Positions 23,470 through 62,401 of a stretch of 64,000 nucleotides of DNA are shown here, in pieces. Below the pieces are notes generated by a model. The model made no database searches. It had not been told where the DNA came from and was given only the letters and a program-made list of their open reading frames with translations. The stretch is from a phage, in sequence record NC_102531.1. The stretch is one strand, 5' to 3'. Position numbers and translations under genes: made by a program. Positions within the stretch are counted from its first letter, which is position 1; each line of letters opens with the position of its first letter.

Positions 23470-25542
23470 TTATGAGAAGTCTGGCGGGACAACATCTTCT
23501 ACATACCCTTTCAGAGCAACCTGCCCCATATGAAGCACGGTAGAATCTCTAGCGGTAACAGTGATGCTGTCAGACATTACTTGCGGGTATGCCCACACAT
23601 ACTGTTTTACCTCAGGATATCTATACTCTATAGTTGCCATGTTTCCGCAAATACATCTCCATAAAAATTCTTGGTAATTCCTAGTTGGGTCGTAACCATA
23701 TACCGGAGCAAGCTCTTTACTAGGAACGAACCCTGCAAGGTATTGTATTTCAGACGGTTGCCAACCTAACTTAACGATAGGTATGTTTACAGACTCTTTT
23801 GCCTTTTCAATACCTCCCTGCATCACCCAATCGTAGCACTCGGTGCAGAAGAAATCAAGAGCACCTGCTTCCTTTTTATATTGGTCAGCAAGGTTCAGCT
23901 TTTGCGTAAGCTCAGTTTCCATAATGGTTGGGAAAAACAACAAAGCTGTCATCTGAGCTGATGCAGCGTGTGCCTTTATTGCCTTTGAAATAGCCGCAAT
24001 ACGAGCGCCAAGCTTACCACGACAAAATGCTACATACTTGTCGTAAACACCGCCAGTTTTAGGATCGTCAATAGTCCCAATATCTAATGCATACTCACCT
24101 GTCTCATCATAAAACGCCTGCTTTGTAGGGTAATCATAAATACAAGGTCTACGAGTATCGGTATTGTACCACCACCACGGTTCACCAACCTGCATAATCA
24201 CTGGCAGGTTGTTTCTCATAGCGGCTGATGCAAAATTCTTAAATACTGCAGTAAGGAAATTCATACCCTCTTCAATGGTTGGAGACAGGAGGTAGCTACA
24301 AGGTGTATACCCTGTTTTAGCGTAGTTATCGTTCCAGTCTCTTTGGGTCCATTCCAACGGGCAGGCATCGCTGAAAAGCTCAAAACTTACAGACTGCATA
24401 ACGTCGAAGTTATGTCGTTTGGCATTGTACATAAAATCATCATGCCATTTATAGGCTGCAGCGTTTAGCGCTCCTGTTCTGTTTATAGACCATTGGGTTC
24501 CTGACCATGTGTAGTCATAATAATGACTCATACCAACATAATGGTTTATGGTTCCGGTATAGCCCAGACGCTTGATATTGTTCAACACCCTTAAAGGAGA
24601 TACGTTCCACATATCGTCATATGCGGTGCAGATCCCAACGTCGTGCTCTCTCACCTGAATATTGTTAAGTTGCATCATTTTCCAGCCTGTGTCTGGCTGA
24701 AGCAGATCTAGGCGCAACTCACACTCTACGTTTTCCGTTCTCGGGTCTGTGCTGTTACTTACCCAGTCTTTAGGCATGAGCGGTATTAAAATCCTTCTCA
24801 CCTGCCGAGGATCAACACCCATCATGTTGTTGTTCTGGTCCATCCCAACGCAGTCCTCAAAATCAATATGAATTTCTGCAACATTCTTATCCTCTGAGAT
24901 GCTGACAGCATATTGAGCTAAAGGAACATAGATGATTGTGCCATCAACAAGGTCTACAGTCATAATCATCTTTTCAGGGGTGGAGAAGTTGCTGGCGTTG
25001 GTTATTGACATTCTGAACCAAAGCTTGGTGTTTCTCATCTCATAATGATCATCAAATCCAATACCGAAATGGTCATACTTGTCAACTGTTTCCCAAATGC
25101 ACCCAGCCATACCCCCATATGTTCTTGACACTAAACGGTTAATACAACAGTTGTTATCTGCAACAATACAGGTACTTTCAGTCTGCTGAGTAGTTGTAAC
25201 CCAATATCTTGGGTGAAACATTCTCTCCTCAACAGTATCCCAAGATATCCTGTCAAGATTCTCATCTGAAACTATTGTACATTTCGCCCTTTGTGTCCCG
25301 ATCATCACCCCTTGGGATTTTGATGAAAACTCCATAAAGAAGCTTCTTGGCAACCTGTTGGGTAATTTGTCAACAATTTCCACCGGGATCTCAATACTGG
25401 TTGCCCCAACTGGGATAGTTACATCGCCCTCAACATGATCATAATCCCTACCCGGAACGGCAGTATCCTGAACTGTGCGGTAATGAAACCGTGCAGCCAT
25501 TGTAGAGTAATCACGGTAAGGTTTAAAAACAGCTGTTGCCAT
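23470..25542 (-). CDS. tail/baseplate-associated protein (690 aa), possible carbohydrate-active domain
   Basis: Large ORF between baseplate genes and fibre genes; Trp-rich MQVGEPWWWYN segment; no firm family call. Confidence 0.45.
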   Translation of the reverse strand: MATAVFKPYRDYSTMAARFHYRTVQDTAVPGRDYDHVEGDVTIPVGATSIEIPVEIVDKLPNRLPRSFFMEFSSKSQGVMIGTQRAKCTIVSDENLDRISWDTVEERMFHPRYWVTTTQQTESTCIVADNNCCINRLVSRTYGGMAGCIWETVDKYDHFGIGFDDHYEMRNTKLWFRMSITNASNFSTPEKMIMTVDLVDGTIIYVPLAQYAVSISEDKNVAEIHIDFEDCVGMDQNNNMMGVDPRQVRRILIPLMPKDWVSNSTDPRTENVECELRLDLLQPDTGWKMMQLNNIQVREHDVGICTAYDDMWNVSPLRVLNNIKRLGYTGTINHYVGMSHYYDYTWSGTQWSINRTGALNAAAYKWHDDFMYNAKRHNFDVMQSVSFELFSDACPLEWTQRDWNDNYAKTGYTPCSYLLSPTIEEGMNFLTAVFKNFASAAMRNNLPVIMQVGEPWWWYNTDTRRPCIYDYPTKQAFYDETGEYALDIGTIDDPKTGGVYDKYVAFCRGKLGARIAAISKAIKAHAASAQMTALLFFPTIMETELTQKLNLADQYKKEAGALDFFCTECYDWVMQGGIEKAKESVNIPIVKLGWQPSEIQYLAGFVPSKELAPVYGYDPTRNYQEFLWRCICGNMATIEYRYPEVKQYVWAYPQVMSDSITVTARDSTVLHMGQVALKGYVEDVVPPDFS

Positions 25543-27835: not shown

Positions 27836-30800
27836 TTAGTCGTGAGACTCGTTCCAAGGTCCTTGGAAGCTTGAGTTAGAACGGCTTACCACAACAGTAG
27901 GACAGGATATTGCGACCCCTGTTACAGAAGACGTTGACCATGGTGTGTAGATTTCAACAACAATATCTATGGTTTGTTCACCAAGACCTGTTATCCCTAC
28001 CGCACACATGCCGTTGTTGTCGTTTCCGTACTTCTTACCTGCAAGGATTTGATGTCCGGCTATCCAAACGTTGAGCTGGGAGCTGGCAAGAGTACCATTC
28101 AGTTTAAAGAAGAATGTTACGTTCTTACCCTGACCTGAAACGTTATCTACGTATCTCCACCTCCAACGGCAAACCCTTTGCTGGGAGTTATATACTGGAG
28201 CACAATCCCCGTAAGTCCTATGTGCAACAATTGCACCTTCGAACTGGTTAGCACGGATAACAGAAGCTTCTACACGACCACGGAAGGTACCTCCGGTTGC
28301 ATCTATGGTGCCCCTAAAGCTACCATTATTGGCATAAACATCCCCACGGAAGGTACCACTAGTGGCGTTAACTGCCCCTGTGAAGTTACCAGAACTAGCG
28401 TTGATGTTGCCTTTCACCCACACATCCATAAATTGGGCGTGCCCGTTCTTGTTAATATACCAACCGTATTTATGGTACCCGTTGCCATCGTAGTTGTTTG
28501 ACGAGATTTCTTGTGCGATCTTGGCAGAGGAGATCGTGCCATTCTCTATAAAAGCGTCTTTCAAGAACGCTTGGTTGTTCTTGATTGCGAAAGCAAGGGT
28601 TGCTGTTCCATTTCCTGGGTTGTATACCGCAAAATTGTTTGCACTAACCATGAAGTAGGATTGAACTTGGCCTCCAGACCCTTCCATCCCCAACTGAATA
28701 CCTGCAACATATTTATTCCCTGCGGAGTCTACCTGTATTTTTGTGCCCCATTGAGCATTTACTTTACCCTCTAAGTCGGTTACAGCCTTAGATGTTGTAG
28801 CTACTGCAGCCCTGATCTCAGACACATCCCCAACATCATCCATGATCTCCTGCTTAGCAACAGCAAGTTCTTGACGAATAGCTGACGCTGTGCCGTTGAT
28901 AAGGTCCACAGTGGCTTTGTTGGTATCGGAAATTGTAGCATCCAGCGCTGTTTTTGTGGAGGTCAGTTTTCCATCCAAAGCATCAATCGCTTGCTTGTTG
29001 GTAGAAATCTCCCCACGTGCAGAAGTTATCTGCTCTGACAGTGCAGATGTTTTCTGATTAAGCAGGTCAGTGGTGGCCTTGTTGGTATTGGCAATCAAGG
29101 TGTTGAGGTCAGTTTTTGCGGTAGTTATCTTTCCGTCAAGGGTGGTATAGTTTTTAGATACCGTCGCGTTTGTCTGACTAATCTTTTGATCCAGAGTTTC
29201 AGATGTCCTGTTCAGAAGATCTACAGTGGCTTGGTTAGTGCTCAAGATGCTTGCGTCAAGTTCTGTTCTCTGAGTATTGATCTTACCATCCAGAGTTTTA
29301 TCTCCGGCTAAATACCCGCTCTCAACTCCATCTATCTGCTCTACCAGCTCACCTTTGGCGGCAACCAATTTCTCATCTAAAGCCTCTGTCTTTTTGTTCA
29401 GAAGATCAGTAGTTGCTTTATTGGTTGTCTCAATCAGAGATGCCAATCTTCCACTTTCAGTGTTCAGATCGTTGGTGAACTTGTTCTGTGCAGCAACAAG
29501 TTTCCTATCCAGCGCTGTGATATTGCCATTGACATCCTCAAACTTCTGAGTTGTCTCTGTAACTACCGCACCTATTCTGTCTCCAAGTTGCTGGAATGCC
29601 TCATCTACCCTACCATCCATGTATTTATTAAGCTCTGTGACACGATTTTCAACCTCTTCAATAGAGGAATCCAAAGTGCTCATCAACTCTTTATAAGTTT
29701 CTGTCTTTTTGAATTCAGCATCTATCTGAGGCATCAAATCCTCGATAGAGGTGTAGCAGCGTGCAGCGCATTCTACAAACTGAGAACTACCAAAAGCGTT
29801 TGTGGTTCTAATATACCAATAATAAACCTTATCGTTCTGCAGACCTTCAGATGTCCAAGTTGAACCAACACCCATACGAGTGGCTTTTGAAGTAACAGTT
29901 GCATCACTGGTGTCGGGCAACCTTGTCATACCAGATGTCCAAAAGTCATACTGGGTACTTACACTTGCCAAATCCCTGCTGTGTGGAATCAAGGTGATAG
30001 CAAAGTATCCCTGCTTAACCTCTACAGAAACCGGAGCCTCAGGTGCCTGAATGTTAAACTCGCAGTACGCTTCTGGAGATACACCACCTTTATAAGATGT
30101 TGCAACCACGGTTGCTGTGTATGACCCTTTGGTCAAGCCTTCTACTCGGACAAACTGCTCAACTGTTTGTGCTGTCCAAACAATCTCTCCGTTCTTTCTT
30201 ACCTGCACAATATTTTGAGCGTATGTCCCAACGTTGTCCCAAGCCAAAACACCGTGAGTTACTTCTCCAGCTTGGAGAACGGAATATCTGAAGTTTTGCG
30301 GTTGAGCTACACCAGATGGAGATATTGGAATATCTACATCGCCAGAATCCGGAAGTTGCCCTGTGGCATCATTCCACTCTTTAGCATCTTGACGAAGTTT
30401 TACCTTGACACCACCCTTTTTAGTAAACTCCCATTCAAGAACTCTCATTTCTTGGCCCACTATACCAATACTTGGGAGGTCCATTGTAACGTAACGACCA
30501 GGTTTAAATTTGAAACCTCGCATATTGCAGGTGACTTCAATAATCCTGCCAGCTCTGGCACGTCTTAGGAAGATTGCAGAAACACGCTGAGCTTGATAAG
30601 GGCTGGTAACAAAGCGATAGTCTATATCGATTATCTTTCTTTCTCCATCCTTCTCTATCCACTCTGGGACAAACACTGATGGGAAATCTGTTTCAGAATA
30701 CCCTTTGGTCGGACTAGTGAATCTGCCAGTTATTGTGTTAGATCTTTTGTCAAATGAGGCTTCCGGATAGATCTTAACCTCACCACAGACACAGTCCTCA

Positions 30801-31675
30801 CTAAGTGTCATTGTTGCTGGGCCATAGTATGCACCAACCAGCAAACCATACTTACCAGCAACATAACTAAGATCTGCACCGCAAGCTTTCAGCATTTCTG
30901 CCATAATACTTGCTGGGGCCTCATCCATGTCAAACTCACCGTTAATGGTGTAACGGCGCTCACTGGTTCCGTCTGCGTTTTTTACCGCCTCGTCGCATAT
31001 GTTGGCAGCCTCCTTAAAGGACTCCCAGTTGATGGTTTCGTCAGGACATTTAAGGTACGTTCTTAAATAGTCTAGGATCACCAAGGCAGCGTTATTGGTA
31101 TACACCTCTTTACTGATGCGAGGATCATAGCATTTTTTACCAACCTTGACGAGTGTAACGTTTGGCAACCCAAAAGGAAACTTGTTAGGGTCAAACTTGA
31201 AACTGGCACGTAGCCAACTGATCCCTCTACCTATCATGTCGGGTGACCATGATGGGCAGTGTGTACCCATGAAAGGATCAGATGTTTTTCTGTCGTTATG
31301 TAGCTCCCACGATACCAGATCTCCATACGAGGAAATAGGATTACCGTCGATAAGTATGTCTTCTATACCTTCCAGAGGATGATTAGCAAGAACAATGGCA
31401 CAATGGAGGGTTCTGTCTCTGTCCTGCTCCAAAAACGCAAGCAGTCCAGACGTGCGTGTCTTCCCATACACTACAGAGCAAGGTGCAGCAGAAGATCTGA
31501 GAAGCTTTTGTCTATCTTGCTGACTTCTGTAAGATTTGTTGCCCTCAAAAATCTTATCCAGAGTTCTGGTGGTAACAGTGTTCAGGCTGTCAGCCAGAGC
31601 TGCCTTGGATGCGTTCCAGTCATAACTTGAAGATCTTGCAGAAGCAACGATGTTATCAATCATTGCAATTGGCAT
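27836..31675 (-). CDS. tail tip/central fibre protein (1279 aa) with FN3-like segment, coiled-coil repeats and C-terminal Gly-rich repeats
   Basis: QGYFAITLIPH...YYWYIRTTNAFGSSQFVE resembles the FN3 region of lambda J; repeated TDLLN.KT..L...I heptad blocks; C-terminal (S/T)G.FRG repeats. Confidence 0.5.
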   Translation of the reverse strand: MPIAMIDNIVASARSSSYDWNASKAALADSLNTVTTRTLDKIFEGNKSYRSQQDRQKLLRSSAAPCSVVYGKTRTSGLLAFLEQDRDRTLHCAIVLANHPLEGIEDILIDGNPISSYGDLVSWELHNDRKTSDPFMGTHCPSWSPDMIGRGISWLRASFKFDPNKFPFGLPNVTLVKVGKKCYDPRISKEVYTNNAALVILDYLRTYLKCPDETINWESFKEAANICDEAVKNADGTSERRYTINGEFDMDEAPASIMAEMLKACGADLSYVAGKYGLLVGAYYGPATMTLSEDCVCGEVKIYPEASFDKRSNTITGRFTSPTKGYSETDFPSVFVPEWIEKDGERKIIDIDYRFVTSPYQAQRVSAIFLRRARAGRIIEVTCNMRGFKFKPGRYVTMDLPSIGIVGQEMRVLEWEFTKKGGVKVKLRQDAKEWNDATGQLPDSGDVDIPISPSGVAQPQNFRYSVLQAGEVTHGVLAWDNVGTYAQNIVQVRKNGEIVWTAQTVEQFVRVEGLTKGSYTATVVATSYKGGVSPEAYCEFNIQAPEAPVSVEVKQGYFAITLIPHSRDLASVSTQYDFWTSGMTRLPDTSDATVTSKATRMGVGSTWTSEGLQNDKVYYWYIRTTNAFGSSQFVECAARCYTSIEDLMPQIDAEFKKTETYKELMSTLDSSIEEVENRVTELNKYMDGRVDEAFQQLGDRIGAVVTETTQKFEDVNGNITALDRKLVAAQNKFTNDLNTESGRLASLIETTNKATTDLLNKKTEALDEKLVAAKGELVEQIDGVESGYLAGDKTLDGKINTQRTELDASILSTNQATVDLLNRTSETLDQKISQTNATVSKNYTTLDGKITTAKTDLNTLIANTNKATTDLLNQKTSALSEQITSARGEISTNKQAIDALDGKLTSTKTALDATISDTNKATVDLINGTASAIRQELAVAKQEIMDDVGDVSEIRAAVATTSKAVTDLEGKVNAQWGTKIQVDSAGNKYVAGIQLGMEGSGGQVQSYFMVSANNFAVYNPGNGTATLAFAIKNNQAFLKDAFIENGTISSAKIAQEISSNNYDGNGYHKYGWYINKNGHAQFMDVWVKGNINASSGNFTGAVNATSGTFRGDVYANNGSFRGTIDATGGTFRGRVEASVIRANQFEGAIVAHRTYGDCAPVYNSQQRVCRWRWRYVDNVSGQGKNVTFFFKLNGTLASSQLNVWIAGHQILAGKKYGNDNNGMCAVGITGLGEQTIDIVVEIYTPWSTSSVTGVAISCPTVVVSRSNSSFQGPWNESHD
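28880..29450. repeat. degenerate in-frame tandem repeats inside the 1279-aa gene
   Basis: Recurrent DNA blocks aaggtccacagtggctttgttggtatc / aagcaggtcagtggtggccttgttggtattggc / cagaagatctacagtggcttggttagtgct / cagaagatcagtagttgctttattggttgtctc. Boundaries approximate. Confidence 0.4.
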
Positions 31676-33242: not shown

Positions 33243-33315
33243 TGTGCCTCCAGGTTAAACAATCATGATAGCTATTTTACCAGATTTTGAGTTAATACGC
33301 AATACAAACAAAAAG

Positions 33316-33333
33316 CCCCCGCCGAAGCGAGGG
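33316..33333 (-). terminator. rho-independent terminator, UUCG-tetraloop hairpin variant
   Basis: cccccgccgaagcgaggg (one-base variant of the 16-mer at 1385 and 27811) with A-run on plus side; downstream of the 33341 stop. Confidence 0.45.
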
Positions 33334-33340
33334 CAATACT

Positions 33341-33673
33341 TTAAAGTGCTTCCAAGGTAGATACTGATTGGTCGAACATGTTCAACCTTATCGGATCTAC
33401 AACTTTTCCGCTTTTCGAGACGATGTTTTCTGCATTCTCGTCCAAGGCCAGAACGTTGACATAAAACAATTTACTTTTCTCGCAAACTGGATAGACAACC
33501 ATGTTGCCAAACTCATCCTCGGCCTCATAAGTGTCTTCAGTTTCTGTGTAAATGAACCCGACAACCTCTACAAGAAGGGTGTTTTGCAACACCTCATTCT
33601 CGTAAAAGCCAATTTCGTCCATGAAACCGTTAAAATCCTCCCTGTCAGTAAACCCAAGGGTAAAAGTATTCAT
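33341..33673 (-). CDS. hypothetical acidic protein (110 aa), possible fibre chaperone
   Basis: ORF track; start overlaps stop of the 1481-aa gene. Confidence 0.4.
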   Translation of the reverse strand: MNTFTLGFTDREDFNGFMDEIGFYENEVLQNTLLVEVVGFIYTETEDTYEAEDEFGNMVVYPVCEKSKLFYVNVLALDENAENIVSKSGKVVDPIRLNMFDQSVSTLEAL

Positions 33674-36600
33674 TATTCAACACTCTCCATCATAAGCTGG
33701 GTATCTGTCAGTGCAGAGTTCCAAACTCTTATGTCCTTAATATGACCAAATAAGTGTCTTTCACCTGTCGCCGTTTGCCCACCAATGCGGATGAAAGCGC
33801 CTCCTGCTAGGAATTCCCAAGAAGACTGCGTTTCCGTGCTCACCAGTCCGTTAGCAAAAGAGCAGGTTTTACCGTCACCTTTTATCCTGAACCCGATTTT
33901 CAATTTACGGGCTTTAGCCATTTCGTAAACACGTCTGTTTGACCCTCCAATATCACAGTATGGATAGCCATCATCCGCAATATTTGTTGCAGAGCCAAAC
34001 CCCATGATAAATGCAGCACCAGATTGATGACCCTCTGTATCGATAACCCTAGGAGCTGCGTTAGGAGCTTTACCCCAACCTCTCCAGTTGGCATCCACCG
34101 TAGCAGCGATAGTGAATGGTCTAGGCGCTAAGTTATCCGTCATTGGGAATTTACAAAGATCTGCCGCCCTGGTTACAGATGAAGACCCTGTAGGGATAAA
34201 CGAGGACTCACAGGACCCTAACTCAAATTGAGGTATTGCAACATCAACCCAATCTCCTACGGCATGTTGAGCACCTTCTGGTGGAGCAATTTGGAACTGG
34301 CACCCGATCTTATTGTCAGAGGCCACTGCTTCAAACGTAGCAGCAATCCTTATCCAAGCAGGACCTGCTGTTTGCCATCTCTCAGCTTTTACTTTAATTC
34401 TCCCAGCTGCATCCCCTGTTGTTTTAACTTCAAGTGTTGACAGGTTAACATAAGCGTCACCTTGGAACACCGTGGTGGATCCATTGTACATGTCGAATCT
34501 TACACGCAGTCTCTGGTGGGCTTTACCACCTCTTGCAATAATAGACCCAGTACAGAATTTCTCAGCACCTGTCACATCGGCACCCCTAGTGGCTGGAACA
34601 GTGGCAAGGTTTAACGCTGTTGTTTCTACACCGGATGTGGTGTTTACTGTAAATCTTGCGCCTTTTGTGCCGTTAGTATTTGTTACAGTGCTACCGACAG
34701 TAATCGCTTGCTGTGCACCCCACTTGCTTGGGTCCTCACTGTTGAGCATGAGGTTTGTCCTTTGCCCCTCGATAAGCAACCCATCTCTTTCAAAACGTGG
34801 TTGGTTTGCTTGTGCAACAGCCATAACACCCCGCTTAGTGAAATAGGTTGCTGTGGAAGGTCTGGAGAAGACCATCTCACCTTCACCCAATGCAGGTTTT
34901 AGGTTAGAGGTTAAAGGCAACCACAAGTCAGGCATAACTGGAGCAGTTGTGTTTTCTGGGAAGCTTGTTCTCTTCCAAGGACTCCAAGCCATTCCGCTGC
35001 CAAGGTTATTGTAATACCTTTCCCATGTTCCACCAAGATACATTTTATATATCTGGATACAACCTGTTCCTTCATTAGCGGAGTTTCTAAGAACGATCAG
35101 CGTACCAGCCATCTGCTGTCCTGGTGGGTAATTTCTTTCCGCTGTGGCGTTGGCATTTGCCTCTTGATGGTAAATCCCTTCACGATCTGCCTTGTAGTCG
35201 TTAAGGTCATTAGTTCCCAACCCTTGACCACGGTGCTGAATAACTTTGTTCCACGCTCTGTGGTCTCCCTGCTCTATGGAACGAGTATACAGCTGGTCTA
35301 AACGACCTGCCATCTGGAAAGCGTAGTTTCCAGAAAATGCCACAGACAACCCGCCAACAACCATTGAACCTTCAGGTCCGTTGACGTTGCCAGCCAGTAT
35401 TTTGGATGGGTTGTTAGGCCCAAACTGGTTGTTCCAGTCTGCACCAGTATGACATACAAAACCACCCGGTGCTGAGAAAGTGCCATCTTTGTTGAAGTTG
35501 TAGAATCTATGAGCTGTGCCTACAACATCGCGAACGATAACTTGACCAGCTTCCGGAGTAGATCTGAACTCTGCCTGGCCTTGCAGTCTTGCACCATTAC
35601 CACATTTAGAGGTAAAGGTGTTGTTGATCAGATCCTCTGTTCCTTCCGATGCAGCTTGGAACCCTGCGTTAGAGAACAGTGCTTTTCTAGTGGTCTGACT
35701 ACCAGGACAAATGTAGTCAATACCGTCTGCCCAAAGCTCGACTTTGGGCATGTTCATTTTGCTCATCACTGCATAGCGTTCAGGAGTCCCCAGGTAGTGC
35801 CACATAGTTCCACCACCAGTGTAGAAACCTGATGTTCCTTTGAACTCAACCAGAGGTCTGGTGTTTGTTACATCATCACCTTTGATTGCAAGACTCAAAT
35901 CTGCAGATTCCAGAGGAGCACAGAACTTGACACCATCTTGGTTACCTGTCACGTTGCCTACCTGCCAATCAGCCTCCCTGGTTGACACTTCTATTACAGT
36001 AGCGCCAGCATATACTGTAACAGGGAATGCACGTGCCTCTACATAGAATGCAACATACTCCTGCTTACCTCTGGTTGGAGATACACATCCGAGGATTGCT
36101 TGCTCGTTTTGGTAGAAATTAATAACCCCTTGGAAAGAATCACCTCTGTCTGTCCAGCCACCAGTTCTGTAGTGACACTGTAGTGTAGCACAGTTCATTG
36201 GGTCGCCGCCAGAAGAAGATCTGGTGACAATGGTTAAATCTGTCCCGATAGTTGCTGCAAAGTTGGGGTCAGTTCTGACGATAATAGGATAATACTTACC
36301 GTCCTGCATAGCTGCAGTTCTAGGCAGGTTTACATATGGTCTAGCACCTGCTGCCAGAGGGATTCTGAATTGTGCTTGAGCATCCCCTACAGTCCTGGCA
36401 CTGGTACCACCACAAGCTATCGGTAGTGGTTCCCATTTGGCTTTCCGGTTGTTATAAACACCCCACTCAAGCGTTCCTTCACCTTGCTCGTCCATACCGC
36501 CATCCCAGATGACCATCTTGGCGGCTTTCTTGGACCCCCAGAAACCTCTTTCTGCCCCTGAACTACGGATCCACTCTCCAAGTCCCCAGTTTGTCAGCTG

Positions 36601-38118
36601 ACCAGTAAGATCCCCAACTTGCATATATTTAGGGCAGTCTAATACACCGTCTTCGCGGAAACCTAAATATCTATGAGTTTCAGATCCTTTTGCACCTTTG
36701 TGGAGGTGGATTGTCAACCAAGCCTTATTGTCGTTTCTTACCTCAGAGTAGATCCTATATCCATGCTCAAGGACACCGTCAGCGCTGTATTTGTCCCCGT
36801 TAACAATACCGGATGCTGACTTAACATCAGCAGAACTTTGAGACAGGTAAAGGTGCCCGAAGGTAGGAGAATTTCTAGACCCGAGACCGATGTGCGATCT
36901 AAAGGTATCATCGTTACGAGGTCTAACCATCGGCTGCCATGCAGTCCACTGATTTGTGTTGGCCTGATAGGTTCTCAAATACCAAACATCTACGTTAGAG
37001 AATGGGTAGTATTCCTGACGACAACCTGTACCGCCGTTAGCATTGTTCTGCCAAACAATCAAGTGACCAGCACCAGAACCTGCAGGGTAACCATTTGCCT
37101 CAGTTGCATAAGCAGTCATCGGCTGGTAGTATACACCATCCTGATTACCAGTCAAGTTATTGATATTGAAATTTGGCTCAAGGGCTGCACGTTGCTTATA
37201 GAAAGCACCGATATTGATACGGACTCCAGCGGCATCTCTAGCCCCTGTGCCGCCTTGCTCTATAGCAAGAGGTTGCCACGAAGCTGTTTGTTGGTTCCAC
37301 ATACCCCAACGGCCTGTTGCATCAAGCTGCAAGTACCCTGCCGTATTTAAATCATCTCCAGCACGGATAACTGTTCTTGTTGGGTTGTTTGCCTCTAGGC
37401 GTTTAAATTCATCACGAAGTGCTATTCTTTTCGTTGTTGCTACACCGTTGGTTACTGCAATGGTGTACATGGCTCCGGTGGTAGCGCCACGGAAAATACC
37501 ATCAACAGTTGTAGTATCACGGCGAGATACCACACCGTTCAGAAATTTTTCACCAGCTGCTACAGAAGGGTAGTTGGTGGTTCTTCCCTCTTCAATAACT
37601 GCAGGGCCAACAAAGTTATCAAGGTGAATAACATCGCCTACGGTGTGCACTGTACCAAAATCTACACGCTGTGCAAGTGCTTTAGCATCGTTAGCTGTCT
37701 GAACAGTAACATCCATTACATCCTGGACAGACTGCCCTTCGGCTGTCATGATCATAGATGCGCCAATGGTAGATTCCAGCTCCTCCCTTAGGGACGGGTC
37801 AGTATATACCATCCATGCAGCGTCAGTAATCCCACCATCAGCGTACGGTGAAGACAGTGCAGGAACAGTGTGCGGAAATTCGCCTTTCCAACGCAGGTAG
37901 AGGTCTTCCTCTTCGAAGTAGGCAAAATCCATTGGGCCGTTTAACTTACCACCTTCCTTAAAGGAGATTACATGAGAAACAGTCCCATCCACATGGACAA
38001 CATCGCCAATTTTTACACGACGGGTCAGGTCTGGTTGCTGAACAACCAGGTAATCATCCTCTGTCACTGCGGTAGTGGCAGGAAGAGATTCAATTCTGAC
38101 AACTTTAATATCAGCCAT
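33673..38118 (-). CDS. tail fibre/tailspike (1481 aa) with conserved N-terminal anchor module and internal duplications
   Basis: N-terminal ~85 aa (DDYLVVQQPDLTRRVKIGDVV...FKEGG...DFAY) homologous to the N-terminus of the 222-aa protein at 40754; internal repeats GGTGARDAAGVRINIGAF / GGTSARTVGDAQAQFRIPLAAG. Confidence 0.55.
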   Translation of the reverse strand: MADIKVVRIESLPATTAVTEDDYLVVQQPDLTRRVKIGDVVHVDGTVSHVISFKEGGKLNGPMDFAYFEEEDLYLRWKGEFPHTVPALSSPYADGGITDAAWMVYTDPSLREELESTIGASMIMTAEGQSVQDVMDVTVQTANDAKALAQRVDFGTVHTVGDVIHLDNFVGPAVIEEGRTTNYPSVAAGEKFLNGVVSRRDTTTVDGIFRGATTGAMYTIAVTNGVATTKRIALRDEFKRLEANNPTRTVIRAGDDLNTAGYLQLDATGRWGMWNQQTASWQPLAIEQGGTGARDAAGVRINIGAFYKQRAALEPNFNINNLTGNQDGVYYQPMTAYATEANGYPAGSGAGHLIVWQNNANGGTGCRQEYYPFSNVDVWYLRTYQANTNQWTAWQPMVRPRNDDTFRSHIGLGSRNSPTFGHLYLSQSSADVKSASGIVNGDKYSADGVLEHGYRIYSEVRNDNKAWLTIHLHKGAKGSETHRYLGFREDGVLDCPKYMQVGDLTGQLTNWGLGEWIRSSGAERGFWGSKKAAKMVIWDGGMDEQGEGTLEWGVYNNRKAKWEPLPIACGGTSARTVGDAQAQFRIPLAAGARPYVNLPRTAAMQDGKYYPIIVRTDPNFAATIGTDLTIVTRSSSGGDPMNCATLQCHYRTGGWTDRGDSFQGVINFYQNEQAILGCVSPTRGKQEYVAFYVEARAFPVTVYAGATVIEVSTREADWQVGNVTGNQDGVKFCAPLESADLSLAIKGDDVTNTRPLVEFKGTSGFYTGGGTMWHYLGTPERYAVMSKMNMPKVELWADGIDYICPGSQTTRKALFSNAGFQAASEGTEDLINNTFTSKCGNGARLQGQAEFRSTPEAGQVIVRDVVGTAHRFYNFNKDGTFSAPGGFVCHTGADWNNQFGPNNPSKILAGNVNGPEGSMVVGGLSVAFSGNYAFQMAGRLDQLYTRSIEQGDHRAWNKVIQHRGQGLGTNDLNDYKADREGIYHQEANANATAERNYPPGQQMAGTLIVLRNSANEGTGCIQIYKMYLGGTWERYYNNLGSGMAWSPWKRTSFPENTTAPVMPDLWLPLTSNLKPALGEGEMVFSRPSTATYFTKRGVMAVAQANQPRFERDGLLIEGQRTNLMLNSEDPSKWGAQQAITVGSTVTNTNGTKGARFTVNTTSGVETTALNLATVPATRGADVTGAEKFCTGSIIARGGKAHQRLRVRFDMYNGSTTVFQGDAYVNLSTLEVKTTGDAAGRIKVKAERWQTAGPAWIRIAATFEAVASDNKIGCQFQIAPPEGAQHAVGDWVDVAIPQFELGSCESSFIPTGSSSVTRAADLCKFPMTDNLAPRPFTIAATVDANWRGWGKAPNAAPRVIDTEGHQSGAAFIMGFGSATNIADDGYPYCDIGGSNRRVYEMAKARKLKIGFRIKGDGKTCSFANGLVSTETQSSWEFLAGGAFIRIGGQTATGERHLFGHIKDIRVWNSALTDTQLMMESVE

Positions 38119-38154
38119 TCTTTCTCCTGAAAGGGGGCAAACAGCCCCCCTATG

Positions 38155-40752
38155 TTAAAGGTACAATCCACGGTATTGAGCATAAAGGCCCAGACCGCGA
38201 AGGATTTCGCCAGAGTGATAGCCAACCGGATCAGAAACTGCCCAGCAGCCGTTTAAAATATTATCCCCATTAATGAAGTGGTGCTTTTGCAGTAGCTTCA
38301 CACAGGCTTCTACAACAATATCTATTTGAGGTATTGTCTCTGAATACCCGCACAGACCTAGCCAGCAGCAACCTGCAAGCCATTCACCTACCACCCACAT
38401 CCTGTCCCCTCTGTCTTGATAAGAGTATCCCCCAGAGGTGTTAAAGTCTGTAGGCAGATTTCCTGAATGAGATGACTGGAATCTGTTGAGGAACCATGCC
38501 CATTTCTGGCAGAACAGGAATAGTCTTTCATCAACAGGTTCTTTATGTTTCTTGAGCTCATATATTGTGCGGCACGCAGCAACAAAAGATCTTGACTGTA
38601 GTTTAGAGTTATCTACCATCTCCCACCAACCAGTCAACCCTTCATTGCCTCTCTGCCATACATAACGCGAGGCAACTGGACCTTCTGTCTTAAATGTATT
38701 GTTATACCAGACTTGAGCGTCATACAGAAAGCCTATTGTATTTGACAATCTATGGCGATCTATGTTTTCTGCACCCATGCAGTAGACTGCTGGGTATTGC
38801 ATGCCAGGGTAGGGCCAATTTGGCCTTTCCTCCAAGAGATAGTTTTCCTTATCTATCACCTTTCCGGCAGGGAACACACCGGGTGTGTGCCTGTATGCAC
38901 CTTGCTTGTAGTTTCTGACATAGCAATCGCCAACCTTAGCGGTTGATTCTGTCTTGCTTGCCATCCATACGCTAAACCAGATTAGATAAGCATCCCTATC
39001 TGCAATATAAAATTGCGGCAGTGTGTTGACGCAATACAGATCAAACAAGCCATTACCTATCTGCCTGTCGCTTAGGCTGAAATCTACAGAGGTGAGCCCC
39101 TTAGGATTAGCAAAGAAAGGTTTAATCTCTTCTTCGGCGTGATGAGGCTGTGTCGGATCTAGTTTGAAATCTCCTAGAGTAAGAGTTTCTGTTATCCATT
39201 GTCCATTAGTGGCATATAGATCAGCATACCATAACCACCTGTCTTTGTCAAGAAATTTGACCCTTACCATCTCATCATCTGATCGATAAGTTACTGAGTT
39301 TAAAGAAATCTCTCTTCCAAAATTGAAAGTTACTTTACCTCTTGCTATATTACAACGGGTGAAGTTGTCAGAGTGGTTGTAAATGTCGGTATCATACTGC
39401 ATACTAACACTAGCACCACCGCTTACGGCAATGTTTTCCTCTTTAGGTAAGAGATACGGATTACCGTCTTTACCAACTACCTCTACGAAATCAGTAACCT
39501 TGGCAACTATTTCTGTTACCTCTGCACCTCCAAAAGGGACACCTATCCTGTACTGTTTTTTGTTATTGTTGCCATCATTAAGGATGAAATGCGGCTGGAA
39601 CAGAACACCTTCTCCTCCGAAATTCATAACAATTTCAGCATCTCTGCCTATTTTGTATGTAGTCCCTTTTTGAATTATTTCGCAAGGCTGGCGTGCGTTC
39701 ATTCTAAAATTGATATACCCGTCACTGTCCCTGCTCATGACAGGAACTGTTCCTGCAACAAGACAAGTACCATCTGTGAACGGTGCCTTAATCAACGTGG
39801 TCTTTCTAAACAGTTTGTCGTAGGCGTTTATATCACTGAAATTAAGCAACTTGTTGTAAGACTGTTCAAACGCGGTGTAATACTTTTCCTCACCTGTCAA
39901 GGTGTAGAGTTGATAACAAGCGTCACACCACATCTCTTCCCCGTCCAACTCCGGGGCTTGATTATCTGCAATCACGTTTATAGGATTTACAATTACAGGG
40001 GATCCTGCAGGTATCACCGATCCACCCTGCTCTTGAGGTAATCTTACACAATAGGTCACCTTGTGGCTGCCTGTAACACCCTTATCTTGTAATTGGATTG
40101 TGCCGAACTCTACAGACGTATGACCACTGTCGGCTATGCTACCGTTAGCCCAATAGCGGTTACCATCCCATGCTATGTACCACTCAACCCACCAACTTAA
40201 TCCGGATGTTGTCCAATCTGGGTTAGCATCTGTGCCACCGTAAACATCAGAGTCTACAGTGTTTCTTCCTAACACACCGTTATACGCTTGGAATGCCTTG
40301 TCCAGATATTCCCCCCATGTCGGAGATCCGGCTGGGATTTTTCCTCTACCGTTGGTAAAAGACACCACCACATCTTTAAACCCACCGTGTGATGGAACCC
40401 CATCTGTGGATAGAGGGTAGTGGGACAATCTTTGCATTTTACTTTCTACGGCATATGCACCCAGAAGATGACTATTGTAAGCTTCCCAAGCATCTTTTGC
40501 CCTATCCAGATAGAAATCGCTTTTCGATGCCCTATATGCTTCAATGTATCCCAGAATCAACACAGCTTGGGACTCATGCATTGCCCAATCATTATTTATC
40601 TTATTACCTGCCCACCCTGCAGCTATAAGACCATCAGGGTTTACTAGCTTATTTTGTGTAGGGGTGTTGGTAATACCTGTGTTGTTATCGAGGCACTTCC
40701 TGTGCCCCTCAATCATCTGAAATACGTTATCAATGTTGTGTTGAATACGCAT
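38155..40752 (-). CDS. tail-associated protein (865 aa) with putative polysaccharide-degrading domain
   Basis: Follows the 222-aa anchor protein by 2 nt. N-terminal GLIAAGWAGNKINNDWAMHESQAVLILGYIEAYRASKSDFYLDRAKDAWEAY loosely resembles (alpha/alpha)6-barrel glycosidases. Confidence 0.45.
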   Translation of the reverse strand: MRIQHNIDNVFQMIEGHRKCLDNNTGITNTPTQNKLVNPDGLIAAGWAGNKINNDWAMHESQAVLILGYIEAYRASKSDFYLDRAKDAWEAYNSHLLGAYAVESKMQRLSHYPLSTDGVPSHGGFKDVVVSFTNGRGKIPAGSPTWGEYLDKAFQAYNGVLGRNTVDSDVYGGTDANPDWTTSGLSWWVEWYIAWDGNRYWANGSIADSGHTSVEFGTIQLQDKGVTGSHKVTYCVRLPQEQGGSVIPAGSPVIVNPINVIADNQAPELDGEEMWCDACYQLYTLTGEEKYYTAFEQSYNKLLNFSDINAYDKLFRKTTLIKAPFTDGTCLVAGTVPVMSRDSDGYINFRMNARQPCEIIQKGTTYKIGRDAEIVMNFGGEGVLFQPHFILNDGNNNKKQYRIGVPFGGAEVTEIVAKVTDFVEVVGKDGNPYLLPKEENIAVSGGASVSMQYDTDIYNHSDNFTRCNIARGKVTFNFGREISLNSVTYRSDDEMVRVKFLDKDRWLWYADLYATNGQWITETLTLGDFKLDPTQPHHAEEEIKPFFANPKGLTSVDFSLSDRQIGNGLFDLYCVNTLPQFYIADRDAYLIWFSVWMASKTESTAKVGDCYVRNYKQGAYRHTPGVFPAGKVIDKENYLLEERPNWPYPGMQYPAVYCMGAENIDRHRLSNTIGFLYDAQVWYNNTFKTEGPVASRYVWQRGNEGLTGWWEMVDNSKLQSRSFVAACRTIYELKKHKEPVDERLFLFCQKWAWFLNRFQSSHSGNLPTDFNTSGGYSYQDRGDRMWVVGEWLAGCCWLGLCGYSETIPQIDIVVEACVKLLQKHHFINGDNILNGCWAVSDPVGYHSGEILRGLGLYAQYRGLYL

Positions 40753-40753
40753 C

Positions 40754-41422
40754 TTAGATAGCTCCTGCGATAATCAGTGCCCCGTACCAAGTTAACCCGT
40801 TGTCGTAGGTTTCCAACTTGAAAATGTCTGTTGCACCAGCTGTAAATGTTAGGATAGGATCTCTTCCGTAGGACCATTTAACATTACCAGGCCAATAGAC
40901 TTTGTTGCCGCCAGAGGTCTGAGTAATGCATACGGTTATAGTTCTCGCCACCCCTTCAAGACCTTCTGTTTGATTTTCAAAAGAGATTGTGGTATTTGAA
41001 GTTAGTCGAACCTTAAAGGTATCCGCAACTTCAAGATCCATATCAAGCTGACCACCGATAGATCCGTAATCAACTATTCTGCCAGAAGAAGTTGCAGCAA
41101 GCTCACCAAAAACAGACCAGGCATTTGCAGACACACCCCCAGCACCCTCTACAGTGGAGTCTGGGAGGATTATTTTAGGATAATCCCCGTTCCACGTGTA
41201 GTAGCGCTTAGTTTCTGGATCATAAGCAAAGTCCTTCTTGCTCTTAAGATAACCACCCTCTGTGAAATAGACTATTTTAGTAATGCTGAGATCGTTGACA
41301 ACATCATCAATCTTAGCCTTTCTTGTCCCATCAGTCTGGTTGACAACCAAGAAGTCATCACTCAGGACTGTTTCTGCATCTTCAAGATCTGGAATTGGTA
41401 TTGTAGGATAAGCTACAGCCAT
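40754..41422 (-). CDS. tail fibre anchor/adaptor protein (222 aa) carrying the shared N-terminal module
   Basis: N-terminus DDFLVVNQTDGTRKAKIDDVV...FTEGGYLKSKKDFAY aligns with the N-terminus of the 1481-aa protein. Confidence 0.5.
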   Translation of the reverse strand: MAVAYPTIPIPDLEDAETVLSDDFLVVNQTDGTRKAKIDDVVNDLSITKIVYFTEGGYLKSKKDFAYDPETKRYYTWNGDYPKIILPDSTVEGAGGVSANAWSVFGELAATSSGRIVDYGSIGGQLDMDLEVADTFKVRLTSNTTISFENQTEGLEGVARTITVCITQTSGGNKVYWPGNVKWSYGRDPILTFTAGATDIFKLETYDNGLTWYGALIIAGAI

Positions 41423-41431: not shown

Positions 41432-42148
41432 TTAGTTAACATCAATAGCACGACCAGACTGGTTGGCAATAGCCTCATCATTGGAGGTAGCAATAACACC
41501 AGAGTATTCGCGCTCATCTGGAGCAAGCGTCCAGGTATTGCGGTTAATGGTTTGTTCTGCCTCAGTCATCAGCAGATCTTTATCCTGAGTCAACAGAGAG
41601 CCTACAGGGATCGGGTTTTCCATCTCAGGACCAGCATACTGGTTCCACCATGTGGCATCTCCGGTTCTAGGCAATCTGAAGTTGATCAGGTAGTACAGTT
41701 TATTAGCCCACTTAATCCAACCTTCATCATCACAGAGAGAGGTTGTCCCAGAATCAGGCTGTGGGTAGGTAAACTGATCAAGACCTACAAAAGCCAGCCT
41801 TACAATCTCGTTCTCTTTGGTAACAACCTCAAAGAACGCTTGGTATGTTCTCGATCTTCGATCCATGGTAGACTGGAAGTTTACGATGTTTAGTACATCC
41901 GGCTCTTGTCTTGCCACTTCCATAATCTTGTTATCAAGAACAGTCTTCATGACCTTCTTACTGAGAAAGTCCATATAAGGGAAGCCAAACAACTCGTCAA
42001 AGTACCAGCTCCCCTTCCACGTATTAAACCTCATCCACAAGCGCTGGCGTAGACTTACCTGGTTTGAATCTATCAACTCAAGACCTTTGTCTATCGCCAA
42101 ATCGCCTGTCTGTGGGTCCATCAATATATCACTATAAAGCGTAGCCAT
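41432..42148 (-). CDS. baseplate protein (238 aa), hypothetical
   Basis: ORF track; located between the spike gene and the fibre anchor gene. Confidence 0.4.
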   Translation of the reverse strand: MATLYSDILMDPQTGDLAIDKGLELIDSNQVSLRQRLWMRFNTWKGSWYFDELFGFPYMDFLSKKVMKTVLDNKIMEVARQEPDVLNIVNFQSTMDRRSRTYQAFFEVVTKENEIVRLAFVGLDQFTYPQPDSGTTSLCDDEGWIKWANKLYYLINFRLPRTGDATWWNQYAGPEMENPIPVGSLLTQDKDLLMTEAEQTINRNTWTLAPDEREYSGVIATSNDEAIANQSGRAIDVN

Positions 42149-61663: not shown

Positions 61664-61740
61664 TGGTCTCCACGGAGTGATTCGAACACTCGACCTCCTG
61701 ATCCCAAATCAGGCGCTCTACCAAGCTGAGCTACGCGGAG
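61664..61740 (-). tRNA. tRNA-Pro (anticodon TGG)
   Basis: Manual cloverleaf on reverse complement: acceptor CTCCGCG/CGTGGAG, D-stem GCTC/GAGC, anticodon loop TTTGGGA, T-loop TTCGAAT, CCA encoded. Confidence 0.7.
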
Positions 61741-61751
61741 TATTTACTATT

Positions 61752-61826
61752 TGGTGGCCCTGGGTGGAATTGAACCACCGTCTGGCGATTATGAGTCGCT
61801 TGCTTGAACCTTCCAGCTACAGGGCC
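61752..61826 (-). tRNA. tRNA with CAT anticodon (Met, or Ile if lysidine-modified)
   Basis: Acceptor GGCCCTG/CAGGGCC, anticodon loop CTCATAA, T-arm GGTGG-TTCAATT-CCACC, CCA encoded. Confidence 0.65.
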
Positions 61827-61827
61827 T

Positions 61828-61903
61828 TGGTGCTGATGGCAGGACTTGAACCTACAACCTATTGATTACAAATCAATTGCACTACCGATTGTGCTACATC
61901 AGC
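61828..61903 (-). tRNA. tRNA-Thr (anticodon TGT)
   Basis: Acceptor GCTGATG/CATCAGC, D-stem GCAC/GTGC, anticodon stem ATTGA/TCAAT with loop TTTGTAA, T-loop TTCAAGT, CCA encoded. Confidence 0.7.
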
Positions 61904-61910
61904 AAAAAGG

Positions 61911-62007
61911 TGCTAGGTGATGGAATCGAACCACCTATGTATTCAACGACTACCTCGTCTATTTTCAGGATTAAAAATCCTCGCCCTTGCCAAAGGGCTT
62001 ACCTAGC
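61911..62007 (-). tRNA. atypical 97-nt tRNA-like element (perfect acceptor and T arm, expanded core; identity unresolved, possibly anticodon TTT)
   Basis: Acceptor GCTAGGT/ACCTAGC 7/7, D-arm GCCC-TTTGGCAA-GGGC, T-arm GGTGG-TTCGATT-CCATC; only plausible anticodon loop is TTTTTAA, followed by a 30-nt region with hairpin GACGA-GGTAG-TCGTT. No CCA. Confidence 0.35.
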
Positions 62008-62105
62008 TCAGTATGTTGACCATGTTGCTAGTCGGCGATGACGACTGTAACATTTGATAATCCGGTTCTGCTTCCGGCTTTCGCTTAATTACAAGGTCAA
62101 CAATG

Positions 62106-62196: not shown

Positions 62197-62310
62197 TTTA
62201 TAAATTATACTGATAATGACACTGATTTTCGAGCAGTTAGTGACTAGTATAAACGACGATAAATATCAATGCCATTATCTGTATTATTTATGCATCTAAA
62301 AATATAAATT

Positions 62311-62397: not shown

Positions 62398-62401
62398 AAT
62401 T

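What the first reader, a model, noticed from the sequence alone, without database searches (positions are those of the whole stretch)
33673..41422. Shared N-terminal anchor module on two tail proteins, next to a putative depolymerase
The first ~85 residues of the 1481-aa fibre and of the 222-aa protein are clearly homologous. The 222-aa protein is followed at a 2-nt gap by an 865-aa protein with a possible glycosidase-like domain. This suggests a modular system in which different distal fibres or enzymes dock via a common adaptor, as in multi-tailspike phages.
Basis: partly seen in the sequence, partly recalled or inferred. Interest (0 to 1): 0.45.

Follow-up and report, generated by a model that had tools for sequence, protein, structure and literature searches.

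The report
Adaptor-plus-enzyme tail fibre cassette in rV5-like phage
In this rV5-like E. coli phage, a small tail protein and a long tail fibre carry the same attachment module, and the small protein most likely holds a large sugar-enzyme-like protein on the tail; the phage group and its multi-fibre tail are already well known.

Summary
The 222-aa and 1481-aa proteins share about 105 N-terminal residues (38% identity, E=2e-18). Both pass Pfam Tail_spike_N, and no other ORF in the window has the module. The 865-aa gene starts 1 nt (not 2) after the 222-aa stop.

The window is a Vequintavirus, about 94-95% identical to many sequenced phages. The three genes are rV5 gp43, gp42 and gp41, all reported in virions.

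New here: the C-terminal ~110 aa of the 222-aa protein is a domain that sits in a small protein directly upstream of an 865-like protein in 11 phage lineages. The small protein's N-terminus varies; in a T7-like podovirus it is the T7 fibre N-domain. The 865 family mostly lacks an anchor of its own.

So the 222-aa protein is most likely an adaptor for the 865-aa protein, while the 1481-aa fibre has the same anchor fused directly. Binding is inferred, not shown. This is a new member of a known kind (branched receptor-binding complexes), of moderate interest.

The parts
40754..41422 (-). 222-aa protein (orthologue of rV5 gp43, PVP-SE1 gp51 and, in shorter form, phi92 gp140): proposed adaptor made of an anchor module plus a docking domain
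   Evidence: ORF; translation; PHROG 7760 'tail fiber protein' 7.8e-120; identical or nearly identical in about 118 phage records; rV5 gp43 detected in virions (PMC3606486)
41288..41422 (-). N-terminal ~45-aa leader motif of the 222-aa protein (aa 1-45), shared with the 1481-aa fibre
   Evidence: An HMM of this motif finds the 222-aa and 1481-aa proteins, PVP-SE1 gp51/gp49, phi92 gp140 and EndoN92 gp143 (E=6.7e-8), and SeKF_13 proteins. phAPEC8 and phi92 adaptors keep only this leader plus the C-domain
41108..41287 (-). PF18668 Tail_spike_N domain of the 222-aa protein (aa ~46-105)
   Evidence: Pfam 2.1e-10, 41 bits against cut-off 25; PDB sequence hits to CBA120 TSP1/3/4, G7C gp63.1 and 9occ gp13 N-terminal regions
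40757..41089 (-). C-terminal ~110-aa beta-sandwich domain (aa ~112-222): proposed docking domain for the 865-aa protein
38155..40752 (-). 865-aa protein (rV5 gp42 / PVP-SE1 gp50 / phi92 gp141 family): (alpha/alpha)6 barrel with glycoside-hydrolase-like fold and beta-domain insertions, no anchor of its own
33673..38118 (-). 1481-aa lateral tail fibre (rV5 gp41 position)
   Evidence: PHROG 6578 'tail fiber protein'. aa 1-1050 are 87-89% identical across Vequintaviruses; the C-terminal ~430 aa is allelic
37804..38118 (-). Anchor module of the 1481-aa fibre (aa 1-105): leader plus PF18668
   Evidence: BLASTP against the 222-aa protein, E=2e-18; Pfam PF18668 1.3e-9, 38.5 bits; PDB hits 9occ_G 3.3e-10 and others
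33676..34971 (-). Exchangeable distal receptor-binding part of the 1481-aa fibre (aa ~1050-1481)
   Evidence: NCBIfam GTA_spike_fiber 1.5e-20; PDB 6tb9 RcGTA head spike fibre 1.6e-8; 38-45% identity to side tail fibre tips of lambdoid, T1-like and T5-like coliphages
33341..33673 (-). 110-aa ORF whose start overlaps the fibre stop; function unknown (possible fibre accessory protein)
   Evidence: PHROG 1361, unknown function, 2e-26; no Pfam or NCBIfam match; followed by a terminator-like hairpin at 33315-33334
41432..42148 (-). 238-aa baseplate protein directly upstream (position of phi92 gp139, the sheath initiator): context, and a possible neighbour of the anchor site
   Evidence: PHROG 4233 and weak baseplate wedge PHROG 120; synteny with phi92 gp139; gp139 role from PMC13450770

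Best explanation
This is the proximal part of the lateral-fibre locus of an rV5-like myovirus. Two proteins carry the same N-terminal virion-anchor module, made of a ~45-aa leader plus a Tail_spike_N domain.

In the 1481-aa protein the anchor is fused directly to a long fibre with an exchangeable distal receptor-binding tip.

In the 222-aa protein the anchor is followed only by a ~110-aa beta-sandwich domain. I propose that this domain docks the product of the next, probably translationally coupled gene. That product is the 865-aa protein, which has no anchor and is built around an (alpha/alpha)6 glycoside-hydrolase-like barrel.

The 222/865 pair would then be a two-gene 'adaptor plus cargo' receptor-binding unit that places a glycan-binding or glycan-cleaving protein on the baseplate next to the long fibre.

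Shown: the homology, the domain content, the fold, the gene-pair conservation, and virion presence (from the literature).

Inferred: physical binding of the 865-aa protein to the C-domain, attachment of the anchor to the baseplate periphery, and any enzymatic activity.
For: 1. The anchor homology is significant and unique within the window.

2. The C-domain of the 222-aa protein and the 865 family have nearly the same spread in the phage collection: 535 against 524 records, with matching genus counts.

3. In 11 lineages a small protein ending in this C-domain sits directly upstream of, abutting or overlapping, a full-length 865-family gene. Ten of the large proteins were scored with the family HMM (843-1382 bits; the window protein seeds the model); phi92 gp141 is assigned from annotation, position and size. 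The lineages are Vequintavirus, Seunavirus, Phapecoctavirus, Justusliebigvirus phi92 gp140/gp141, Rosemountvirus, Vibrio phage D531, Kolesnikvirus, Seoulvirus, Crifsvirus, the T7-like Aghbyvirus ISAO8 and an SU10-like podovirus contig. The genomic contexts differ (baseplate, neck, or the T7 gp17 position).

4. The small protein's N-terminus changes with virion type. In ISAO8 it is the T7 tail-fibre N-domain (PF03906, 1e-8), and the pair occupies the gp17 slot between the internal core genes and the holin.

5. 865-family members start at their conserved N-terminus with no anchor domain in all but 3 of the long hits.

7. The 1-nt gap with an internal AGGAG suggests coupled translation.

8. rV5 gp41, gp42 and gp43 were all detected in virions (PMC3606486).

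9. The (alpha/alpha)6 GH-like fold is strongly supported. The barrel segments are the most conserved part of the family, and E60, D270, E272, D277 and E849 are acidic in at least 90% of members.
Against: No direct evidence of binding; I could not run a complex prediction.

In 4 of 15 loci examined, the C-domain protein is followed by something other than an 865-like protein. The domain is therefore not specific to this cargo.

The three natural 865-family proteins with ~270-aa N-terminal extensions show no significant profile similarity to the C-domain (hhalign probability 1.8%). There is therefore no clean fusion ('Rosetta stone') evidence.

The Vequintavirus 865 subgroup has replaced 9 of about 38 family-conserved polar or aromatic residues. 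Catalytic competence here is uncertain.

The Pa223 capsid spike and the Solidus tailspike also match the 222-aa model. The C-domain could be a distal knob rather than a dock.
Confidence: 0.6

Rival explanations
1. The 222-aa protein is an independent short spike whose C-terminal beta-sandwich is a distal receptor-binding knob. The 865-aa protein attaches to the tail by its own, unrecognised means. Adjacency reflects only a shared tail-module history.
Against: The pair is conserved in 11 lineages with non-syntenic contexts and is tightly abutting or overlapping. In the T7-like ISAO8, only the small protein carries the T7 fibre N-domain, and the 930-aa protein would have no way to join the particle. 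No anchor domain is detectable in the 865 family.
Confidence: 0.2
2. The 865-aa protein is catalytically inactive. It would be a lectin-like or purely structural arm of the fibre network that uses the (alpha/alpha)6 barrel only to bind glycan or as a scaffold, so it is not a depolymerase.
Confidence: 0.35
3. The 865-aa protein is an assembly chaperone for the small protein or for neighbouring fibres, as tail fibre assembly genes usually follow their fibre gene, and it is not a functional virion component.
For: It lies immediately downstream of a fibre-like gene with probable translational coupling.
Against: rV5 gp42 was detected in purified virions. Its size (865-1157 aa) and its enzyme-like fold are unlike known fibre chaperones. 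A canonical Caudo_TAP chaperone gene exists elsewhere in the window.
Confidence: 0.05

Closest known systems
rV5 gp43/gp42/gp41 and their PVP-SE1 (gp51/gp50/gp49) and phi92 (gp140/gp141, gp143) counterparts: the 'nanosized Swiss army knife' multivalent adsorption apparatus
   Same: Direct orthologues with the same gene order after the sheath-initiator gene. The PVP-SE1 record already annotates gp49 as a fusion protein similar to rV5 gp43 at its N-terminus. phi92 gp141 is listed as a 'glycosidase' (PMC5380687). BASEL annotates the 865-aa orthologue as a 'lateral tail fiber protein with glycosidase domains'.
   Different: I found no publication that assigns gp43/gp140 as the adaptor of gp42/gp141. 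The 2026 phi92 cryo-EM paper leaves fibres I and II unresolved, and a full-text search pairing phi92 with gp141 did not return it. The distal part of the window's 1481-aa fibre is a different allele from rV5 gp41 (1272 aa with a K1F-type chaperone domain).
CBA120 branched tailspike complex (TSP2/TSP4 with XD docking domains related to T4 gp10), and G7C gp63.1/gp66
   Different: Here the adaptor is a minimal 222-aa protein with no receptor-binding or enzymatic part of its own. The cargo is an (alpha/alpha)6 barrel protein, not a beta-helix tailspike. Sequence-level relatedness of the docking domain to gp10/XD domains was not detected.
K1E / K1-5 / SP6 gp37-type adaptors and the KP32-type 'anchor-branch' receptor-binding proteins of T7-like podoviruses (from my own knowledge of that literature)
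   Same: In the Aghbyvirus ISAO8 version of the cassette, the small protein has the T7 fibre N-domain and the enzyme-like protein follows it. This is the arrangement of a particle-binding adaptor that carries a separately encoded enzyme.
   Different: The docking domain is a different sequence family; distant homologues carry PF26209 Phage_phiTE_241_C. Only one cargo gene follows. The cargo fold differs from endosialidases, lyases and beta-helix spikes.
(alpha/alpha)6-barrel glycoside hydrolases (GH8, GH76, GH88, GH105/YteR) and AGE-family epimerases
   Different: Sequence identity is only 8-13%. No family HMM matches. The barrel is interrupted by about 130-aa and about 285-aa beta-rich insertions. 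Catalytic residues are not identified.

Membership tests
Pfam PF18668 Tail_spike_N (TSP1/Gp66 N-terminal domain) | HMM match above the curated gathering score | tested here: met
   222-aa protein: 41.0 bits; 1481-aa protein: 38.5 bits; cut-off 25. PVP-SE1 gp49: 60.1 bits
Pfam PF18668 Tail_spike_N (TSP1/Gp66 N-terminal domain) | Located near the N-terminus of a tail spike or fibre, upstream of the receptor-binding part | tested here: met
   Residues 51-105 and 46-103. PDB sequence matches fall in the N-terminal regions of CBA120 TSP1/3/4 and G7C gp63.1
Pfam PF18668 Tail_spike_N (TSP1/Gp66 N-terminal domain) | Trimeric assembly and attachment to the virion | not testable with these tools
   The monomer AF2 model of this half has pLDDT below 50. 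No multimer prediction was available
Branched receptor-binding-protein adaptors (T4 gp10-like / CBA120 XD docking domains; K1-5 gp37 type) | A particle-binding N-terminal domain on the adaptor | tested here: met
   PF18668 in the window protein. PF03906 T7 tail-fibre N-domain in the ISAO8 counterpart
Branched receptor-binding-protein adaptors (T4 gp10-like / CBA120 XD docking domains; K1-5 gp37 type) | A docking domain homologous to T4 gp10 / XD domains | tested here: inconclusive
Branched receptor-binding-protein adaptors (T4 gp10-like / CBA120 XD docking domains; K1-5 gp37 type) | A second, separately encoded receptor-binding protein without its own virion anchor, encoded next to the adaptor | tested here: met
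   The 865-aa gene starts 1 nt downstream. The pair is conserved in 11 lineages. No anchor domain is found in the 865 family
Branched receptor-binding-protein adaptors (T4 gp10-like / CBA120 XD docking domains; K1-5 gp37 type) | Physical complex between adaptor and cargo | not testable with these tools
   This needs a multimer prediction, a pull-down or cryo-EM
(alpha/alpha)6-barrel glycoside hydrolases (GH8/GH76/GH88/GH105) | (alpha/alpha)6 barrel fold | tested here: met
(alpha/alpha)6-barrel glycoside hydrolases (GH8/GH76/GH88/GH105) | Sequence membership of a curated GH family | tested here: not met
   No Pfam or NCBIfam family at E<=0.01. No PDB sequence hit at E<=1. The ISAO8 homologue has only a sub-threshold GH76 match (20.9 bits against a cut-off of 25.9)
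(alpha/alpha)6-barrel glycoside hydrolases (GH8/GH76/GH88/GH105) | Catalytic acid/base residues in the barrel centre | tested here: inconclusive
   Family-conserved acidic residues E60, D270, E272, D277 and E849 lie in barrel segments. Nine other conserved positions are replaced in the Vequintavirus subgroup
(alpha/alpha)6-barrel glycoside hydrolases (GH8/GH76/GH88/GH105) | Hydrolytic activity on a glycan | not testable with these tools
   This needs a biochemical assay
Classical tailspike depolymerases (trimeric parallel beta-helix) | Right-handed parallel beta-helix catalytic domain | tested here: not met
Sialidase (label 'sialidase domain protein' on the 222-aa orthologue in BASEL records) | Sialidase / BNR beta-propeller or endosialidase domain | tested here: not met
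Vequintavirus (rV5-like) lateral tail fibre locus | Nucleotide identity and synteny with rV5-like phages | tested here: met
   The 7750-nt region is 90-95% identical over 100% of its length to dozens of Vequintaviruses, with the same gene order

The most novel reading that the evidence does not exclude
The 222/865 pair is a portable two-gene receptor-binding cassette: a small adaptor with an exchangeable virion anchor and a conserved docking domain, plus an anchorless (alpha/alpha)6 glycosidase-like cargo. It has moved between unrelated tail architectures (rV5-like, Felix-O1-like, jumbo and small myoviruses, T7-like and SU10-like podoviruses). In rV5/phi92-type phages it would account for fibre density that current cryo-EM studies have not assigned, such as the arm of fibre I or fibre II of phi92. 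Its target would be a conserved enterobacterial surface glycan.
Probability: 0.4. Interest if true: 0.5.

Novelty: new member of a known kind. Interest (0 to 1): 0.35.

Why it matters
rV5-like and phi92-like phages are among the most often isolated broad-host-range coliphages and are candidates for therapy. Published work says it is still unclear which genes build which of their fibres (PMC8594841; PMC13450770).

A specific, testable assignment (gp43/gp140 as the adaptor for gp42/gp141) would help interpret the existing low-resolution fibre maps. A swappable 'anchor + dock + enzyme' cassette found in many tail types would also be a useful part for engineering receptor-binding proteins.

The family's (alpha/alpha)6 fold would add a non-beta-helix class to virion-associated carbohydrate-active proteins. 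The gain is incremental: branched receptor-binding complexes and shared N-terminal anchors are established concepts.

Tried and rejected
1. Fusion ('Rosetta stone') evidence. Three 865-family proteins (P0029, P0040, P0037) have ~270-aa N-terminal extensions ending in a motif reminiscent of the C-domain. HMM (E=0.001 in a 100-sequence space) and hhalign (probability 1.8%) do not support homology, so I dropped this as evidence.

2. 'Sialidase domain' for the 222-aa protein, as annotated in BASEL records. No search here supports it.

3. A single gene split by a frameshift. Rejected: separate, abutting or overlapping genes are the rule in all 11 lineages, and the 865 family has a conserved N-terminus of its own.

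4. Other fibre genes in the window sharing the anchor. BLAST finds none. Pfam scans of 16 other structural ORFs show no PF18668.

5. phiTE as a structural precedent, followed because PF26209 is named after phiTE_241. The phiTE cryo-EM paper does not mention that protein by number, and I could extract no relevant description.

6. Bas63 and Sf14 (Felix-O1-like) cryo-EM papers. I found no description of an 865-like protein.

7. Word-indexed protein searches returned few homologues (6, 4 and 8 hits). The exhaustive HMMER scan and tblastn against phage genomes were needed.

8. The stem-loop between the 865-aa and 1481-aa genes as a terminator. It is not convincing: z=-1.3 and only three U residues follow it.

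9. Schwarzer et al. 2012 (PMC3457257) could not be read. What I say about it comes from citing papers and from my own recollection.
Full report
**What the window is**

The region 33673-41422 is 90-95% identical over its full length to dozens of Vequintavirus (rV5-like) E. coli myoviruses, for example Escherichia phage JeffSchatz/Bas55 at 94.9%. All genes are on the minus strand. In the direction of transcription the order is:
- tape measure, tube initiator, plug, hub and spike;
- a 238-aa baseplate protein at the position of the phi92 gp139 sheath initiator;
- the 222-aa, 865-aa, 1481-aa and 110-aa genes;
- further baseplate and fibre genes.

Through the PVP-SE1 annotation, the three genes correspond to rV5 gp43, gp42 and gp41. 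The rV5 proteome paper reports all three in virions (PMC3606486).

**Checking the observation**

The 222-aa and 1481-aa proteins align over residues 8-105 and 7-105, with 38% identity and E=2e-18. In a six-frame database of the whole window, each N-terminus finds only itself and the other. Both exceed the Pfam gathering score for PF18668, Tail_spike_N. By sequence, both match the N-terminal regions of solved tailspikes or fibres, including G7C gp63.1 and 9occ gp13; the 222-aa protein also matches CBA120 TSP1, TSP3 and TSP4.

The module has two parts:
- a ~45-aa leader;
- the PF18668 domain (about residues 46-105).

phi92 and phAPEC8 keep only the leader in their 157-aa counterparts. An HMM of the leader also finds the N-terminus of the phi92 endosialidase gp143 (E=6.7e-8).

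The gap between the 222-aa stop and the 865-aa start is 1 nt (TAA G ATG), and an AGGAG lies inside the end of the upstream gene.

**The 865-aa protein**

It matches no Pfam, NCBIfam or PDB sequence. An exhaustive HMMER scan of 1.84 billion representatives finds only 92 clusters.

An AlphaFold2 model built on 38 family members is confident (pLDDT 88.3, pTM 0.83). It shows paired helices at 59-96, 269-305 and 663-862, separated by beta-rich insertions at about 126-254 and about 329-613.

The barrel segments are the most conserved part of the family. E60, D270, E272, D277 and E849 are acidic in at least 90% of members. However, the Vequintavirus subgroup has replaced nine other family-conserved polar or aromatic residues.

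A carbohydrate-active fold is therefore established. Membership of a GH family, and activity, are not. It is not a beta-helix tailspike.

**The key finding: a conserved gene pair**

tblastn shows that the C-terminal ~110 residues of the 222-aa protein form a widespread domain. It is found in 535 phage records, and their genus composition nearly mirrors that of the 865 family (524 records).

I inspected 15 loci. In 11 lineages, a small protein (157-269 aa) ending in this domain lies directly upstream of, abutting or overlapping, an 865-family gene. Ten of the large proteins are confirmed by the family HMM; the nine outside the window score 843-1382 bits. phi92 gp141 is assigned from its annotated similarity to PVP-SE1 gp50, its position and its size. 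The lineages are:
- this Vequintavirus;
- PVP-SE1 (gp51/gp50);
- phAPEC8;
- phi92 (gp140/gp141);
- Rosemountvirus SPLA2;
- Vibrio phage D531;
- Kolesnikvirus SeKF_13;
- Seoulvirus SPLA1a;
- Crifsvirus ECO319P1;
- the T7-like Aghbyvirus ISAO8;
- an SU10-like podovirus contig.

The genomic context differs between lineages: baseplate module, neck module, or the T7 gp17 slot. So does the N-terminus of the small protein. In ISAO8 it is the T7 tail-fibre N-terminal domain (PF03906, 1e-8), and the 930-aa protein that follows has no particle-binding domain.

In four other loci the C-domain protein precedes a different structural protein: a crAss-like contig, a short contig, a Pseudomonas jumbo phage and a Microcystis phage.

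**Structure of the 222-aa protein**

The AlphaFold model is unreliable for residues 1-113 (pLDDT below 50). This is expected for an intertwined trimer with a shallow alignment. It is confident for the C-domain, which is a beta-sandwich.

From my own knowledge of the TSP4-N structural work, those TSP4 fragments are the anchor plus the docking (XD) domains. This is suggestive of a docking domain but modest. The BASEL label 'sialidase domain protein' is not supported by any search here.

**Most likely mechanism**

Two proteins use one type of anchor. The 1481-aa fibre carries it fused to a long shaft. Residues 1-1050 are 87-89% identical among Vequintaviruses. The distal ~430 aa are exchangeable. 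They contain a GTA head-spike-fibre domain and are 38-45% identical to side-tail-fibre tips of lambdoid, T1-like and T5-like coliphages.

The 222-aa protein is a minimal adaptor: an anchor plus a docking domain. I propose that it recruits the probably translationally coupled 865-aa glycosidase-like protein.

Shown:
- the homologies, the folds and the gene-pair conservation;
- virion presence of all three proteins (from the literature).

Inferred:
- the physical gp43-gp42 complex;
- the anchor's binding site on the baseplate;
- whether the two anchors occupy two sites or compete for one;
- enzymatic activity and substrate.

One further hint: the first 45 residues of the two paralogues within a phage are as similar, or more similar, to each other than to their orthologues in other genera. 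The figures are 45.5% against 43.2% and 40.9% in this window, and 54.5% within PVP-SE1. This fits co-evolution with a common docking site, but the sample is very small.

**Comparison with what is known**

The multivalent 'Swiss army knife' fibre apparatus of phi92 and rV5-like phages is well described (PMC8594841; PMC5380687). The PVP-SE1 record already flags the N-terminal similarity between gp49 and rV5 gp43. gp141/gp42 orthologues are already called glycosidase-like.

Branched receptor-binding complexes with adaptors (CBA120, G7C, K1-5/SP6, KP32-type) are an established principle. That statement rests on my own knowledge and on the remark that branched structures combining distinct receptor-binding proteins are well described (PMC11990801).

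I did not find in the searchable literature an assignment of the small protein as the adaptor of the 865-like protein, nor recognition of the pair as a cassette shared by many tail types. The BASEL paper says it is unclear which genes build which fibre. The 2026 phi92 structure leaves fibres I and II unresolved, and a full-text search pairing phi92 with gp141 did not return that paper. A Salmonella phage S144 study notes an 865-like ORF17 with a predicted hydrolase fold and unknown role (PMC7432712).

**Verdict**

The locus itself is a well-sampled, already annotated part of a known phage group. The added value is the cross-lineage adaptor-cargo inference and the fold assignment. I rate it a new member of a known kind, with interest 0.35.

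Noticed in passing
window 61664-62476 (-): Cluster of seven tRNA genes (Pro, Met, Thr, Ser, Tyr, Arg). It includes a 99-nt tRNA-like call at 61909-62007 that ARAGORN reports with a four-base anticodon 'atcc' and no assigned amino acid.
   Followed up: no
window 38131-38151 (-): An 8-bp G/C-rich stem-loop lies between the 865-aa stop codon and the RBS of the 1481-aa fibre gene. MFE of the 54-nt segment folded is -17.4 kcal/mol, z-score only -1.3, and only three U residues follow. It is not a convincing terminator; it may be an attenuator or a stabilising element.
   Followed up: partly
window 33315-33334 (-) and 33341-33673 (-): A strong terminator-like hairpin (7 of 8 pairs are GC, followed by a T-run) lies just after a 110-aa acidic ORF. 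That ORF's start overlaps the fibre's stop codon. It belongs to PHROG 1361 (unknown function) and may be a fibre accessory protein.
   Followed up: partly
window 23470-25542 (-): The 690-aa fibre protein has the N4 gp65-type 'non-contractile tail sheath protein' TIM-barrel and N-terminal domains (PF23845 4e-80, PF23844 7e-13). This matches the published N4-glycan-receptor-binding fibre of Vequintaviruses (bioRxiv 10.64898/2026.04.02.716166).
   Followed up: partly
window 27836-31675 (-): A 1279-aa protein with lambda J-type domains (Ig_J_second 1.4e-30, Phage_Tail_Tip 1.2e-38) is encoded inside a myovirus baseplate/fibre locus.
   Followed up: no
window 33676-34971 (-): The distal ~430 aa of the 1481-aa fibre are allelic among Vequintaviruses. 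rV5 itself has a 1272-aa version with a K1F-type chaperone domain. These residues are 38-45% identical to side-tail-fibre tips of lambdoid, T1-like and T5-like coliphages, which indicates cross-family exchange of receptor-binding tips.
   Followed up: partly
GenBank MG065635-MG065689 (hits H2, H13, H14, H16-H19): Unannotated records named 'Campylobacter phage' with host Campylobacter jejuni are about 94% identical to this E. coli rV5-like locus. The host labels look doubtful.
   Followed up: no
P0069 (293-aa metagenomic protein): The first ~195 residues are the N-terminus of an 865-like protein. An adaptor-type C-domain follows directly (HMM E=6e-19). This is either a misassembly or chimera, or real domain shuffling between the two partners.
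   Followed up: partly
L008, L010, L013, L014: Distant homologues of the adaptor C-domain (precomputed Pfam PF26209 Phage_phiTE_241_C in L008 and L010) precede structural proteins that are not 865-like. They occur in a crAss-like contig, a short contig, a Pseudomonas jumbo phage and a Microcystis phage. The domain may therefore be a general dock with several cargo types.
   Followed up: partly
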